64,000 bases of DNA from Candidatus Atabeyarchaeum deiterrae (GCA_037310415.1 CP147780.1:192001-256000), one strand, 5' to 3'. Shown: positions 55,721 to 58,824, counted from the stretch's first letter. Notes: generated by a model from the sequence alone, not told the origin. A program made the numbers and translations.

Positions 55721-56956
55721 TTAGAATCTGACTGGAGCAAAGAACAAGATCATAGGACCGAGTTTGAGTTTTCTTCTTTTCGATTTGACTTCACTCGTTA
55801 TTGCCAACAGAGTGTTTAGATGCTCATCCAGGCTGGAGACGGTTGCGTCTCTGTAAAGTGCGATTGTGTTTATCTTCTCTTCTCGTACGAGAAACTGTAT
55901 TATGATCGGGTTAATTGAATAGTCATGTTTCCAAGGGTTATTTGGTGTTAACACAATCCTTCTGCTTTCCGGGATTAGCTCTACTTTTGTTCTTGCCATG
56001 GCGACTTGATCGACTGTTTCTGCTGAGCCTTTGTCGTCTTTTCCCTCGAAGTGTTCTAGTGTTCTGCCAAGTATTCCCAGATTCTCAAGGTTCCCCGAAA
56101 TAGATTGGTTTGCCTTGGCTTCCTGTTCCTTGCTGGGCAATACTTTCAGGCACATGTATAGAGGCACGTTGTCTTCCTCTAGCCTTCTTGAATACACCTC
56201 GAGAGTCTTGCGGGCAACTTCAGAACATTTCTCGTTACTACTGACGACCCTTAGTGCTGGGCCGAATATTGTTGACGTGTTCTCTGGAGGTTTTGAATTA
56301 GATGCTGAATATGATGGTTGGAATCGTTCTTTTATCTCCTCGAGAGCCGTCTCATATACGTGCGCTGATCCCATCACGGTGAGCAAGTCTCCACGTGAAG
56401 AAGTGCCACCGAAATGCGCAGCGACTTCTGTCAGGAATACAGCATAACTTCCTGAGACATCTTCAGACCATGCCCTTGCAATATCGTTGCTTCGGATATA
56501 TTCGACTAGGTTCACCTTCCCTTTTATCCGCTCAAACATCACTATGTTTATGCAGGGCGGATCTGGACTCTTTATATCCTCAACTGGATTCCAGAACTGT
56601 GCGAAAGCGGATGAAGCAGTGTTCTTCAACGCATCACTTATTTGTTGTATTTGGTTGAACCCGAATCTTTTCCTCATGCACCAACCATAAGTGTATGTGT
56701 GCTCACCTCTCTCCGCCGTAGAGTACTGAGGCCAGTATTGCTGTTCGATAACTTGGGGAGATAAGCCAATGTAATCTTGTGGAGTGATGCTCCCCGTTCT
56801 CCAGTCAGTTAGATGAGCAATTCCACAGAGACATTCAAGCGTTCTTTGTCCCTTTCTTTCAGTGTATGCGATTGTTCCTTTCTCAACGACGGTGTTGACG
56901 ATCGAACGCCATGCCGTATCGACGTTTCTGTTTCTGGTTAAGAATGGTCCATACAT
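55721..56956 (-). CDS. Tandem two-domain thymidylate synthase/dCMP hydroxymethylase-family protein
   Basis: Domain 1 has YTYG, PPC135, R155SND and SAH199VY201. Domain 2 has DQV..PESRR333..NP..QFLVR but no catalytic Cys. Confidence 0.8.
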   Translation of the reverse strand: MYGPFLTRNRNVDTAWRSIVNTVVEKGTIAYTERKGQRTLECLCGIAHLTDWRTGSITPQDYIGLSPQVIEQQYWPQYSTAERGEHTYTYGWCMRKRFGFNQIQQISDALKNTASSAFAQFWNPVEDIKSPDPPCINIVMFERIKGKVNLVEYIRSNDIARAWSEDVSGSYAVFLTEVAAHFGGTSSRGDLLTVMGSAHVYETALEEIKERFQPSYSASNSKPPENTSTIFGPALRVVSSNEKCSEVARKTLEVYSRRLEEDNVPLYMCLKVLPSKEQEAKANQSISGNLENLGILGRTLEHFEGKDDKGSAETVDQVAMARTKVELIPESRRIVLTPNNPWKHDYSINPIIIQFLVREEKINTIALYRDATVSSLDEHLNTLLAITSEVKSKRRKLKLGPMILFFAPVRF

Positions 56957-56971
56957 CTTCTACTACCTCAT

Positions 56972-58504
56972 TTATTGAACCGTCTCTTCGCCAAGCAGAC
57001 GATAGTAAGGATGTGGTGGACGCGGCAAGACACCCATAGTCTTAAGAGCCTCGTCTGCAATGGCAGCTTCCGCTCCAGCCACATCGGGGAAGATGTTTTC
57101 CGCGTTCTTAATAGGTCCATATAGGTTCAAGTCAATTCCGAAGATTGTAGGAAGGGTGTAATCAAAGTCGAATCTGATGTCGTCGTGGTTTTTCACTGAA
57201 GAGTGAAGGTTGTGAATGCCTATGGCTGTGGGAAAACCGAATTGATTTTTCAAGATCCATGCCTGCTCAAGTGCAGACAGCGCACCTCCTCCGAGTCTTG
57301 GCACTCCTGGATCGATTATTGGCTTCTCAACGATATTCTTGAAAAAGCTCAAAGTCTCGCTTGTCTTCTTGTCTGACTCCTCAGCGGATTCCGCGTAGGA
57401 CAAGCAAATGGCATACTTTACTCCTCCGATCTCTTTGAGACTGCCGCGTTCCTTGTCGCTTTTAGTGATTATTGAGTTGTAGATTGTTCTATCCTCGATT
57501 CCAATGTCTTTGGCGAGTCTCAAACCGTGAATCCGAGCTTCAGCAAAGCTGGAGTCAACTATAATCGGTGAATCAGTCTGATCAACCGCGAATAGGAGGT
57601 ACTGTTCGATTGCCTCGACGGTTTGTCCGACGATGTGAACCATAACCGGAATGCTATAGTGTAATGAAAGTTCGTCTTGCTTGTGGATTAGCTCGGCTGC
57701 AACTCTCCTGTCAAAAGTCCCAGTCTTCACGTCTGAGACTATCTTGTCTTTTGTGTAGAAAATCGTACCAGCCATGACAGTTGGGTACTGTCCTCTATAT
57801 CCACCGAGCTTAACCCCGCATAGGTCATAGACTTGAAGCTCTGTCCCAGTAAACGTGAACATAGAGCCCAGCGCGTTTCTGAGTCTCCTCTTGTCTACCT
57901 CGGTCCTCTTCACGAACGCAGAAATCGCCCTTTTCCAGTCGTAGATTTCTTTCCGCTCAGGGGGATAAATCGGTTCCATTTCAAGAGGCTTCAGGTCCGA
58001 ACGGGCGAATAGTTCGTCTATCTTCACTCCAATTTTTTCGAGCGAAGTTTCATCGCTAAGATCTTCAACAGAGGCTATTTGCTGTTGGAAGCGCTTGACA
58101 TATTCTGATGGATTAGCCCCTCTAAAATACGTTGGAAGAAGTGTGGGAATAGTCCCTTGGCTACCTATCACCGTGTATTTGTCGTCTATCCCATTTGAGT
58201 GAAGCGCTTTGAATGTCTGCCCAGGCTCGTGACCTTTAACGCGTTGACCGCAGACCACGACATACCTGATCTCCGGGTTTGATATTATGTTTTGAATTAT
58301 CTTAGCAAGACCCTCGTTTTCAGTTTCGCAGAATCCAGCTATGGCCACGCGATCCGCTCTAGTTTTGATGACTTTGCCCGGAAGGTCGTAGGATCCGCAA
58401 GTCATCACTGCTATCTTGGCTCCTGGGTTACTGACGACATAGTCGCCGGGCAGCGGGGGCCACCTTGTTGCTTTCTTTGTATTATGAACCTGCTTTTCTT
58501 TCAT
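56972..58504 (-). CDS. Soluble MtrA-MtrH fusion (corrinoid protein plus methyl-pterin methyltransferase)
   Basis: MtrA: WPPLPGDY, TENEG..NIISNP.IRY, CG..VKGH92EPGQ. MtrH: GG..GQYPTV.AGTIFY, DSS, IYNSI, IDPGV, GIHN, YGPIKNA, HPY. No TM segment. Confidence 0.88.
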   Translation of the reverse strand: MKEKQVHNTKKATRWPPLPGDYVVSNPGAKIAVMTCGSYDLPGKVIKTRADRVAIAGFCETENEGLAKIIQNIISNPEIRYVVVCGQRVKGHEPGQTFKALHSNGIDDKYTVIGSQGTIPTLLPTYFRGANPSEYVKRFQQQIASVEDLSDETSLEKIGVKIDELFARSDLKPLEMEPIYPPERKEIYDWKRAISAFVKRTEVDKRRLRNALGSMFTFTGTELQVYDLCGVKLGGYRGQYPTVMAGTIFYTKDKIVSDVKTGTFDRRVAAELIHKQDELSLHYSIPVMVHIVGQTVEAIEQYLLFAVDQTDSPIIVDSSFAEARIHGLRLAKDIGIEDRTIYNSIITKSDKERGSLKEIGGVKYAICLSYAESAEESDKKTSETLSFFKNIVEKPIIDPGVPRLGGGALSALEQAWILKNQFGFPTAIGIHNLHSSVKNHDDIRFDFDYTLPTIFGIDLNLYGPIKNAENIFPDVAGAEAAIADEALKTMGVLPRPPHPYYRLLGEETVQ

Positions 58505-58668
58505 GGTTTGATGAGGTCCTCAAGGGAGATAGGAGACTATTTAAGAAATTCCATTTCATTAGATATATACATAGCTCCGTTGTGATGGAGCAATAATGAT
58601 GACAAAAGAAGTATCTGATTCTGCATAATGGCCTGCTTATGGAAGAAAACTAGGAGGAGGACTACAAG

Positions 58669-58824
58669 ATGGTTGATAGGCGGCTCAAGGCAGCCACGAG
58701 GGAACTGGCGAGCTTGAGGCGAAGAGCTAATTTTCACGTGCATGATAAGAAGGCAATCGACAGAAAAAGACGAATCATACATAGGTTAAGGCTTTTGAAA
58801 GCAAAGTCGGCGATAGAAGCCTAG
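58669..58824 (+). CDS. Small basic protein (51 aa), below ORF-track cutoff
   Basis: AGGAGGAGG RBS then ATG; MVDRRLKAATRELASLRRRANFHVHDKKAIDRKRRIIHRLRLLKAKSAIEA. Confidence 0.5.
   Translation: MVDRRLKAATRELASLRRRANFHVHDKKAIDRKRRIIHRLRLLKAKSAIEA

What the first reader, a model, noticed from the sequence alone, without database searches (positions are those of the whole stretch)
55721..58504. Candidate new system: corrinoid-relay pyrimidine methylation (MtrA-MtrH fusion plus ThyA-like enzyme)
Seen: a soluble MtrA-MtrH fusion with the cobalt-ligand His intact (GH92EPGQ), no TM anchor and no mtrBCDEFG in the window. It is followed 15 nt later, with an SD, by the atypical TS-fold gene. Known: MtrH moves methyl from CH3-H4MPT to the MtrA cobamide, and TS-fold enzymes activate pyrimidine C5 through a Cys-C6 adduct. 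Inference: the TS-fold protein replaces MtrE as acceptor module, giving CH3-pterin to Co to C5 of (d)CMP or dUMP. That would be a B12-dependent route to m5dCMP/dTMP, distinct from ThyA and ThyX and needing no dihydropterin reductase; it could also run in reverse as a demethylation/salvage path. MtrA-H fusions alone may already be reported in Asgards; the proposed novelty is the coupling.
Basis: partly seen in the sequence, partly recalled or inferred. Interest (0 to 1): 0.9.

Follow-up and report, generated by a model that had tools for sequence, protein, structure and literature searches.

The report
B12 carrier paired with thymidylate synthase
In this Asgard archaeon and four related families, the only recognisable enzyme for making the DNA base thymine is an odd single-chain thymidylate-synthase relative that always sits behind, and is predicted to bind, a vitamin-B12-type methyl-carrier protein, which points to an untested, possibly B12-dependent, way of making thymidylate.

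Summary
Window 56972-58504(-) encodes a soluble MtrA-MtrH fusion with the cobalt-ligand His92. Fifteen bases downstream, 55721-56956(-) encodes a thymidylate-synthase (TS)-fold protein.

New here:
- The TS-like protein is a tandem of two TS folds with one active site. Cys135 lies in the N half and the Arg-Arg pair in the C half. Asp166 replaces the uracil-specifying Asn.
- Among 400 Asgard genomes, the tandem form occurs in 18 genomes of five families. The MtrA-MtrH gene lies directly upstream in 18/18, in at least four different flanking contexts.
- It is the only ThyA homologue, and no ThyX was found, in the closed genome and in representatives of all five families.
- A co-fold scores 0.86 against 0.00 for the best control.
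- Relatives in DPANN and two Asgard families fuse an MtrA-like domain to TS, but that domain has lost the His.

Best reading (about 40%): methyl-pterin to cobalt to C5 of dCMP or dUMP. Main rival: an ordinary methylene-pterin enzyme docked to the fusion protein. The chemistry is untested. The substrate base and the fate of a 5-methyl-dCMP product are unresolved.

This scan reached the same reading on other Asgard genomes (e1-5396361, e1-5425240). I found no paper that makes the link.

The parts
56972..58504 (-). mtrAH gene: 510-aa soluble fusion of a corrinoid-binding MtrA domain and a methyl-pterin:corrinoid methyltransferase MtrH domain
   Evidence: ORF and translation; Pfam MtrA plus MtrH; no TM segment
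57974..58477 (-). MtrA domain (aa 10-177). The His92 codon is at 58229-58231.
   Evidence: PF04208 E 4.9e-39. Aligns to PDB 5LAA/5L8X at E about 1e-32 with the GH..GQ motif conserved. His92 is invariant in 20 homologues.
57032..57838 (-). MtrH domain (aa 223-491), a pterin-binding TIM barrel
   Evidence: PF02007 E 5.3e-56. Best solved relatives are MtrH 8Z9U (E 6.6e-40) and the methylcorrinoid:tetrahydrofolate methyltransferase MtgA 6SJ8/6SK4 (E 4.7e-37).
56957..56971 (-). 15-nt intergenic spacer with a GAGGT ribosome-binding word
   Evidence: Sequence read directly
56318..56956 (-). TS-like N domain (aa 1-213), the catalytic half. It carries Cys135 (56552-56554), R155-S156-x-D158, Asp166 (56459-56461) and H199-x-Y201. 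It lacks the Arg-Arg pair.
   Evidence: PF00303 55.8 bits and TIGR03283 E 8.4e-28. Invariant columns. HMMER alignment to solved TS puts D166 on Asn177 (E. coli) / Asn229 (L. casei). VIA-align Z 21.9 to dCMP hydroxylase 9IQU, 20 to MilA, 19 to TS.
56267..56317 (-). Interdomain linker (aa 214-230) with a conserved S-Y-S-x-S-N word. It is the main predicted contact with the MtrH domain.
   Evidence: Conservation. Lowest-error contacts are TS 214-219 with MtrH 229-232, 277-286 and 310-312.
55724..56266 (-). TS-like C domain (aa 231-411), a degenerate second TS fold. It has no catalytic Cys but an invariant S331-R332-R333 (55958-55963) and P338-N-x-P341.
   Evidence: Folded alone: pLDDT 88. An exhaustive search of 48,161 PDB chains gives seven TS-fold hits at Z 10-12.4, with the next hit at 4.9. 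Foldseek gives the same. hhalign puts SRR on the RR site of the N half.
58505..58570 (-). Upstream A/T-rich stretch (cttaaata about 35 nt before the ATG), a possible archaeal TATA box for the two-gene unit
   Evidence: Sequence read directly. Not tested further.

Best explanation
The two genes form one operon that encodes a soluble complex.

Shown or strongly supported:
- MtrAH is a His-on corrinoid carrier fused to a methyl-pterin:corrinoid methyltransferase.
- The partner is a single-chain pseudo-dimer of the TS fold with one active site. Cys135 and the base and sugar contacts come from the N half. The phosphate-binding Arg-Arg comes from the C half.
- The pair is inherited together and is the only TS homologue in these genomes.

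Inferred:
- The MtrH domain methylates Co(I) on the MtrA domain from methyl-H4F or methyl-H4MPT.
- The tethered MtrA domain then swings to the TS active site.
- There, C5 of a pyrimidine deoxynucleotide, made nucleophilic by Cys135 adding at C6, takes the methyl from methyl-Co(III). This regenerates Co(I) and releases the product without oxidising the pterin.
- Asp166 argues that the base is cytosine (dCMP to 5-methyl-dCMP, later deaminated to a thymine nucleotide). dUMP to dTMP is the alternative.

The module logic is that of MetH or MtaABC (pterin module, corrinoid module, acceptor module), with a TS fold as the acceptor module.
For: 1. The MtrA and MtrH domains are close relatives of the solved proteins. 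The cobalt His and its surrounding loops are invariant.
2. Linkage: MtrAH lies directly upstream of the tandem TS in 18/18 genomes of five families among 400 Asgard genomes. At least four unrelated flanking contexts are seen, sometimes with a 4-nt gene overlap.
3. Predicted complex: ipSAE 0.86 (runs 0.84-0.89), best of three controls 0.00. That mark was reached by 58 of 80 solved complexes and 2 of 110 mismatched pairs. The runs share at least 85% of contacts and the partner pLDDT is at least 87. I know of no solved complex of this kind. Besides the MtrH contact, residues of the conserved MtrA loops (39, 64, 118-125) touch the TS protein.
4. This is the only ThyA homologue, with no ThyX and no thymidine kinase, in the closed genome. 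No ThyX was found in representatives of all five families.
5. The TS protein changed exactly where a change of chemistry would show. Asn became Asp166 in all tandem forms, against Asn in 126 of 127 other archaeal-type TS. The Arg-Arg pair was lost from the catalytic half, and the protein became a single chain with one site.
6. The MtrA fold and TS are fused in many DPANN proteins and in two Asgard families.
7. MTHFR is present to supply methyl-H4F.
8. Precedents. MtrA is predicted to donate methyl to the methionine synthase MesA (PMC7857596). TS-fold enzymes have switched cofactor before, from folate to flavin (PMC13326640).
9. The published description of this fusion clade leaves the fate of its methyl group open (PMC11291895).
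Against: - No biochemical data exist.
- D158, the counterpart of the pterin-contacting Asp169 of ThyA, and E41 (Glu58) are invariant. This fits a pterin still entering the TS site.
- None of 99 TS-fused MtrA-like domains keeps the cobalt His or the neighbouring loops, and the Asgard fusions carry Phe there. The MtrA-fold/TS association therefore does not need a corrinoid.
- The lowest-error predicted contacts join TS to the side of the MtrH domain, not to the corrinoid face. No coordinates were available to measure the distance between Cys135 and His92.
- If dCMP is the substrate, a deaminase is needed. CDA-fold deaminases are absent from both closed Atabeyarchaeia genomes and were found in only 4 of 9 tandem-TS genomes.
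- dCTP deaminase is present in these lineages, and its usual role is to supply dUMP.
- No corrinoid reactivation gene lies in the operon.
- Methyl-Co(III) transfer to a carbon nucleophile in a TS fold has no precedent.
Confidence: 0.4

Rival explanations
1. Ordinary chemistry in unusual packaging. The tandem TS is a methylene-pterin-dependent dUMP or dCMP methylase that yields dihydropterin as ThyA does. MtrAH docks to it only to share or channel the pterin pool, to regulate it, or for a second unrelated methyl transfer.
For: D158 (Asp169 of ThyA), E41, Y90, H199 and Y201 are all kept. The predicted interface is mainly MtrH domain to TS linker. Archaeal-type TS and MtrA/MtrH co-occur in the Thor-like family without adjacency, which would fit shared H4MPT dependence. 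TS-fused MtrA-like domains lack the cobalt ligand.
Against: It gives no role to an invariant His-on corrinoid domain that is kept with the TS in 18/18 genomes. It does not explain why the switch to Asp166 and to a single active site coincides with the pairing. MtrH-family enzymes handle N5-methyl, not methylene, pterins (established knowledge of MtrH and MtgA; nearest solved relatives).
Confidence: 0.3
2. The TS-like enzyme is not a thymidylate route. It is a cytosine-nucleotide C5-modifying enzyme of the dCMP hydroxymethylase/MilA kind, making for example 5-hydroxymethyl-dCMP or another C5 derivative, with MtrAH acting on that product or intermediate.
For: Asp166 sits at the Asn177 position and Asp132 at the Leu143 position. 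This is the pair of changes seen in T4 dCMP hydroxymethylase and MilA (PMC13326640). The best structural matches are dCMP hydroxylase 9IQU (Z 21.9) and MilA (Z 20), ahead of TS (Z 19). The only other Asp variant found lies on a virus-like contig.
Against: It would leave closed genomes of five families with no thymidylate synthase and no thymidine kinase. A polar residue at the Leu143 position is also seen in the four Asn-type fusion proteins I read (D, S, D, N before P-P-C), so it does not discriminate here. The housekeeping gene neighbourhoods differ from DNA-modification islands.
Confidence: 0.1
3. Reverse flow. The TS-like protein is the substrate-specific methyltransferase (MT1) of a methylotrophic system. 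It strips the C5 methyl from scavenged dTMP or 5-methyl-dCMP onto Co(I), and MtrH passes it to the pterin pool.
For: The gene set matches the MT1 / corrinoid protein / MT2 layout of methylotrophic systems. MtrH's close relative MtgA runs from methyl-corrinoid to H4F. These archaea are proposed non-methanogenic methylotrophs (PMC11291895).
Against: It requires heterolytic cleavage of a C-C bond, which I judge strongly uphill. It leaves the cell without thymidylate synthesis. The neighbourhoods are housekeeping genes, not catabolic ones.
Confidence: 0.05
4. No functional tie. The adjacency is inherited synteny, and the predicted interface is a model artefact.
For: Within Atabeyarchaeia and Njordarchaeia the whole neighbourhood is syntenic. 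Kin are not independent. A co-fold score is not a measurement.
Against: The pair persists while the flanks change completely in four contexts and at 38-50% protein identity. No tandem TS was found without MtrAH (18/18). All three controls scored 0.00.
Confidence: 0.05

Closest known systems
MtrA and MtrH of the methanogen N5-methyl-H4MPT:coenzyme M methyltransferase (PDB 5LAA, 5L8X, 8Q3V, 9QTP, 8Z9U)
   Same: Both domains are clear homologues. The His cobalt ligand and the pterin-barrel motifs are kept.
   Different: They are fused into one soluble chain with no membrane helix. MtrE is absent from the genome. Scores lie below the equivalog cut-offs. The partner is a TS-fold protein, not MtrE/coenzyme M.
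Cobalamin-dependent methionine synthase MetH, and three-part corrinoid methyltransferase systems (MtaABC; MtgA/B/C of Desulfitobacterium hafniense)
   Same: The proposed logic is the same: a pterin-binding barrel loads a His-on corrinoid, which moves to an acceptor-activating module. MtgA is the second-best solved relative of the MtrH domain.
   Different: The acceptor module would be a TS fold presenting a carbon nucleophile, not a zinc thiolate. The corrinoid domain has the MtrA fold, not the B12-binding Rossmann domain of MetH. No reactivation module has been identified.
Short archaeal / methanogen-type thymidylate synthase (NCBIfam TIGR03283, MJ0757 type)
   Same: The N half aligns over the whole 201-position model and keeps Cys, R-S-x-D, H-x-Y and Glu.
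   Different: The score is below the cut-off. Asn is replaced by Asp166 and the Arg-Arg pair is lost. A degenerate second TS fold is added, so a homodimer with two sites becomes one chain with one site.
Cytosine-specific TS-fold enzymes: T4 dCMP hydroxymethylase, MilA, the L. casei TS N229D dCMP methylase, and the flavin-dependent dCMP hydroxylase (9IQU/9IQC)
   Same: Asp sits at the base-specificity position. These are the best structural matches. They show that the TS fold tolerates changes of base and of cofactor.
   Different: Those enzymes are viral or belong to secondary metabolism, and they are homodimers. Here the gene is the sole TS homologue of a cellular genome. D158 is Asp, not the Asn of the flavin branch.
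MtrA-like / TS / DUF4346 fusion proteins of DPANN, CPR and two Asgard families (annotated only as 'thymidylate synthase')
   Same: An MtrA-fold domain is joined to an archaeal-type TS. After the Asgard tandem proteins themselves, these are the closest sequence relatives of the TS half.
   Different: In the fusions the MtrA-like domain has lost the His and the corrinoid loops. Their TS keeps Asn, and many keep a recognisable Arg-Arg word. They carry DUF4346. They have no MtrH domain, and no MtrH gene lies nearby in the two loci examined.
MesA core methionine synthase with MtrA as predicted methyl donor (Price et al. 2021, PMC7857596)
   Same: A biosynthetic enzyme is proposed to draw methyl directly from the MtrA corrinoid.
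   Different: The acceptor enzyme and substrate differ. That link is also only predicted.

Membership tests
MtrA (PF04208; corrinoid subunit) | Match to the family model above the curated cut-off | tested here: met
   134.2 bits against a cut-off of 25, residues 10-177
MtrA (PF04208; corrinoid subunit) | Histidine lower ligand to cobalt in the G-H-x-x-G-Q loop | tested here: met
   H92 aligns with the His of 5LAA/5L8X and is invariant in 20 homologues. Cobamide binding itself is not testable here.
MtrA equivalog of the membrane Mtr complex (TIGR01111) | Equivalog score, C-terminal membrane helix, and mtrE in the genome | tested here: not met
   135.8 bits against a cut-off of 249.15. No hydrophobic segment. 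MtrE is absent.
MtrH (PF02007; methyl-pterin:corrinoid methyltransferase) | Family model above the cut-off and homology to solved MtrH/MtgA barrels | tested here: met
   190.4 bits against a cut-off of 22.8. 8Z9U E 6.6e-40 and MtgA E 4.7e-37. The equivalog TIGR01114 is not reached (180.5 against 271.4).
ThyA thymidylate synthase (PF00303) | Family model above the cut-off, with the catalytic Cys in the P-C motif | tested here: met
   55.8 bits against a cut-off of 24.3. P134-C135 is invariant.
ThyA thymidylate synthase (PF00303) | Asn (E. coli 177) that selects uracil | tested here: not met
   Asp166 occupies that column. It is Asp in all tandem forms, and Asn in 126 of 127 other archaeal-type TS.
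ThyA thymidylate synthase (PF00303) | Symmetric homodimer in which each subunit gives Arg-Arg to the other's site | tested here: not met
   The catalytic half has no Arg-Arg. The pair sits in a Cys-less second TS fold of the same chain. The geometry of the two halves was not measured, because no coordinates were available.
Methanogen-type TS (TIGR03283) | Equivalog cut-off | tested here: not met
   97.3 bits against 174.55. DPANN fusions do pass (189.7 and 181.9 bits).
dCMP hydroxymethylase / MilA branch | Asp at the Asn177 position and an acidic residue at the Leu143 position | tested here: inconclusive
   D166 and D132 are present in the window protein. However, residue 132 is Asn in several relatives. 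That position is also polar (D, S, D, N) in the four Asn-type fusion proteins read. The diagnostic rule comes from PMC13326640.
Flavin-dependent 5-hydroxy-dCMP synthases | Asn in place of Asp169 | tested here: not met
   D158 is invariant. The rule comes from PMC13326640.
MtrA-like/TS/DUF4346 fusion family | One chain with a His-less MtrA-like domain, TS and DUF4346 | tested here: not met
   There are two separate genes. P0002 has no DUF4346 hit even at E 10. The MtrA domain here keeps the His.
Corrinoid-dependent three-module methyltransferase systems (MetH-like logic) | Methyl passes from donor to Co to acceptor | not testable with these tools
   This needs anaerobic reconstitution with labelled methyl donors.

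The most novel reading that the evidence does not exclude
These Asgard archaea make their thymine nucleotide with a third class of thymidylate synthase. A cobamide-dependent enzyme takes an intact methyl group from methyl-pterin via MtrA-bound cobalt onto C5 of dCMP or dUMP held in a TS fold, and no dihydropterin is formed. If the base is cytosine, thymine nucleotides would arise by deamination of 5-methyl-dC nucleotides, possibly by a dCTP-deaminase paralogue, without a dUMP intermediate.
Probability: 0.35. Interest if true: 0.95.

Novelty: new variant of a known kind. Interest (0 to 1): 0.8.

Why it matters
Only two ways of making thymidylate de novo are known, ThyA and ThyX. A cobamide-dependent third route, in the archaeal lineage closest to eukaryotes, would change textbook nucleotide metabolism.

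It would also give a function to the 'orphan' MtrA-MtrH fusion, whose methyl acceptor the literature leaves open.

It could bear on an old puzzle as well. The C1 donor of archaeal-type thymidylate synthases has never been pinned down biochemically. From my own recollection of Krone et al. 1994, which is listed in the references of PMC9931769 but which I did not read here, the purified Methanobacterium enzyme made no dTMP with methylene-pterins.

Even under the conservative reading, the single-chain, one-site TS pseudo-dimer bound to a corrinoid protein is a new architecture. The proposal is directly testable with two recombinant proteins and labelled methyl donors.

Tried and rejected
- **DHFR absence as support.** PF00186 is missing from the genome but also from 397 of 400 Asgards, including 134 of 135 in the family that carries canonical ThyA. 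It is uninformative.
- **Deaminase for 5-methyl-dCMP.** PF00383 is absent from the own genome and patchy elsewhere, 4 of 9 genomes. It cannot be the general partner.
- **Copy number of dCTP deaminase as a marker.** There are two copies in the own family, but also in the fusion-type families, and one copy in other tandem-TS families. There is no specific link.
- **Transcript evidence.** One 198-nt contig inside mtrAH in a single wetland metatranscriptome, and nothing across the gene junction. It says nothing on co-transcription.
- **Sequence self-comparison of the two TS halves.** BLASTP found nothing. Pfam on the C half gave E 0.12. hhalign gave E 0.033 in the right register. Only the structure search settled it.
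- **Neighbourhoods of DPANN fusions.** No MtrH or B12 genes lie nearby.
- **Thor-like family.** The standalone TS and an MtrH-MtrA-MtrH-DUF2114 operon lie about 20 kb apart. I read this as family synteny, not as linkage.
- **Literature.** No paper in the held library joins thymidylate synthase with MtrH, or with MtrA and corrinoid, and none mentions DUF4346.
Full report
**What is there**

On the minus strand, 56972-58504 encodes a 510-aa protein (P0001) and 55721-56956 a 411-aa protein (P0002). They are separated by 15 nt that contain GAGGT.

The genes on either side do not belong to the unit. The EMG1/Nep1 gene lies 347 nt upstream, and a convergent aminotransferase gene follows downstream. 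An A/T-rich box lies about 35 nt before the first ATG, and a T-rich tract follows the second stop codon. So this is a two-gene unit.

The window is bases 192001-256000 of a closed 2.76-Mb Asgard genome with 97% marker completeness. Homologues of P0002 at 62-69% identity are labelled Njordarchaeota and Atabeyarchaeia.

**Gene 1, MtrAH**

- Pfam finds MtrA (residues 10-177) and MtrH (223-491). Both score far above the family cut-offs but below the NCBIfam equivalog cut-offs.
- The MtrA part aligns to the solved cobalamin-binding MtrA domains at E about 1e-32, with the G-H-x-x-G-Q loop conserved.
- In an alignment of 20 fusion proteins down to 39% identity, G91-H92-x-x-G95-Q96-T97 and the neighbouring loop motifs are invariant.
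- The MtrH part is closest to solved MtrH. Next comes MtgA, a methylcorrinoid:tetrahydrofolate methyltransferase.
- There is no hydrophobic segment.
- The genome has no other MtrA, no MtrE and three standalone MtrH genes.
- The published description of the sister genomes names this 'phylogenetically distinct' fusion. It says its activity is unclear and that the fate of the methyl group is uncertain. It does not mention thymidylate (PMC11291895).

**Gene 2, the TS-like protein**

The N half (about residues 1-213) matches the whole methanogen-type TS model but stays below its cut-off. It keeps E41, Y90, P134-C135, R155-S156-x-D158 and H199-x-Y201.

Two things set it apart.

1. HMMER alignments to solved TS put Asp166 on Asn177 (E. 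coli) / Asn229 (L. casei). The L. casei N229D mutant even outscores the wild type. Every tandem-type protein has Asp here, while 126 of 127 other archaeal-type TS domains have Asn. The single exception lies on a virus-like contig. By the mutational literature cited in PMC13326640, Asp at this position selects cytosine.
2. The catalytic half has no Arg-Arg pair. An invariant S331-R332-R333 sits in the C half instead.

The full-length AlphaFold model is confident (pLDDT 86, pTM 0.89). The C half was folded alone (pLDDT 88) and aligned to all 48,161 PDB representatives. It hits seven TS-fold chains at Z 10.0-12.4 (149-159 residues aligned), and the next hit is at Z 4.9.

The protein is therefore a tandem of two TS folds with reciprocal losses, which leaves one complete active site. 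That the C-half arginines reach the N-half site is inferred from the canonical TS dimer. I could not measure it.

The N half's best structural matches are cytosine-nucleotide enzymes: dCMP hydroxylase 9IQU at Z 21.9 and MilA at Z 20. TS scores Z 19.

**Linkage**

Close relatives share the whole neighbourhood, so they do not count as independent evidence. More distant loci keep only the pair:

- after a VTT-domain gene, with a 4-nt overlap;
- after cofE;
- between a hexapeptide-transferase gene and the proteasome/exosome cluster, in records labelled Lokiarchaeia and Freyarchaeota.

In a search of 400 genomes of the phylum, full-length matches to P0002 occur in 18 genomes of five families. In all 18, tblastn finds MtrAH immediately upstream on the same strand.

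Other Asgards carry different forms:

- a roughly 210-aa standalone archaeal-type TS with Asn (a Thor-like family);
- canonical ThyA;
- no ThyA homologue found with this query;
- in two families, an MtrA-like/TS fusion.

**Only route**

The closed genome has one PF00303 hit, which is this gene. It has no ThyX and no thymidine kinase. Representatives of all five families, three of them at 95-100% completeness, also lack ThyX.

**Predicted complex**

Full-length MtrAH and the TS-like protein, each supplied with its alignment, gave an ipSAE of 0.86 (runs 0.84, 0.86, 0.89). The best of three controls scored 0.00. The runs share at least 85% of their contacts, and the partner pLDDT is at least 87. 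That mark was reached by 58 of 80 solved complexes and by 2 of 110 mismatched pairs. I know of no solved complex of this kind, so recall from memory is unlikely.

The lowest-error contacts join the TS N-terminal strand and the conserved interdomain linker (residues 214-219) to the N-terminal hairpin and first helices of the MtrH domain. By my reading of the barrel topology, this is its side, not its active-site face. Residues of the conserved MtrA loops (39, 64, 118-125) also touch the TS protein. This supports a standing complex in which the tethered MtrA domain could shuttle between sites. It does not show that shuttling.

**Relatives with fusions**

After the Asgard tandem proteins and their fragments, the closest sequence relatives of P0002 are 420-530-aa proteins from DPANN archaea. 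Their architecture is MtrA-like / TS / DUF4346. Notes of this scan report the same architecture in CPR bacteria.

This is a Rosetta-stone hint, but it comes with a caveat. In 99 such proteins the His position is Ser, Ala, Thr or Asn, and the flanking loops are changed. The Asgard fusion I inspected has Phe at that position. The TS domains of the fusions keep Asn, and many keep an Arg-Arg word. No MtrH gene lies nearby in the two loci examined. DUF4346 also ends the archaeal DHPS-like protein of this genome.

**Weighing the mechanisms**

For the methyl relay:
- the intact corrinoid and methyl-pterin modules;
- the strict pairing and the predicted complex;
- the sole-TS status;
- the fact that the TS changed base-specificity residue and oligomeric logic exactly where it gained this partner.

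Against the relay:
- the invariant D158 and E41;
- the His-less fused relatives;
- the missing deaminase if dCMP is the substrate;
- the presence of dCTP deaminase, which normally feeds dUMP;
- the absence of any biochemistry.

DHFR absence carries no weight.

I put the relay at about 0.4. An ordinary methylene-pterin enzyme docked to MtrAH gets 0.3, a non-thymidylate cytosine modification 0.1, and reverse flow and chance 0.05 each.

**Comparison with what is known, and novelty**

Each domain belongs to a known superfamily, but none passes its equivalog test. The combination matches no described system. The held literature does not link TS with MtrH or MtrA. The survey of Asgard thymidylate synthases does not mention MtrA or fusions (PMC9931769).

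The nearest functional analogy is MetH and other modular corrinoid methyltransferases. I therefore file it as a new variant of that kind, with a TS fold as the acceptor module. If the chemistry holds, it would be a third class of thymidylate synthase.

Other agents of this scan reached the same reading on other Asgard genomes (e1-5396361 and e1-5425240). I re-derived the linkage, the fold and the complex independently here.

Noticed in passing
L007:1486-3084 (own genome, outside the window): The only DUF4346 domain of this genome ends a 532-aa archaeal DHPS-like protein (TIGR00284) built as DUF6513 + Pterin_bind + DUF4346. The layout (N-terminal domain, pterin enzyme, DUF4346) parallels the MtrA-like/TS/DUF4346 fusions. 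This suggests DUF4346 is a general accessory of pterin enzymes.
   Followed up: partly
L056:1449-2882 and L057:1348-2685: Two other Asgard families carry single-chain MtrA-like/TS fusions (477 aa with DUF4346, and 445 aa). The first has Phe where the cobalt-ligand His should be.
   Followed up: partly
L060:772-5640: A Thor-like Asgard genome has an MtrH-MtrA-MtrH-DUF2114 gene row next to cofE. It lies about 20 kb from its standalone 209-aa Asn-type TS (L059:3144-3773). That spacing recurs in many genomes of the family.
   Followed up: partly
L061:4743-5477: The only other archaeal-type TS with Asp at the base-specificity position (244 aa) lies on a contig of many small co-directional ORFs, together with Dam-like and N6/N4 DNA methyltransferase genes. 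This looks like an archaeal virus with a cytosine-modifying TS homologue.
   Followed up: no
L022, L023, L024 (own genome): There are two full-length dCTP-deaminase paralogues (227 and 148 bits) and a weaker dUTPase-like third copy, but no CDA-fold deaminase and no thymidine kinase. Two copies recur in the fusion-type Asgard families as well.
   Followed up: partly
L002:8900-10095: In the sister genome (SRVP18 Atabeyarchaeia-1), an MJ0013-like gene and a Cas12f1/TnpB-like gene are inserted between the aminotransferase gene and argS. They are absent from the same place in this window.
   Followed up: no
window 58537-58782 (-): An 81-aa ORF lies between the EMG1 gene and mtrAH. It has no family match, and no equivalent gene is called in related loci, so it is probably not a gene.
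   Followed up: partly
L016:5184-5717 and L059:4518-5117: A hexapeptide-repeat transferase gene lies next to the TS locus both in the Loki/Frey-type pair and in the Thor-like standalone-TS locus. This hints that mtrAH was inserted at an older TS locus.
   Followed up: no
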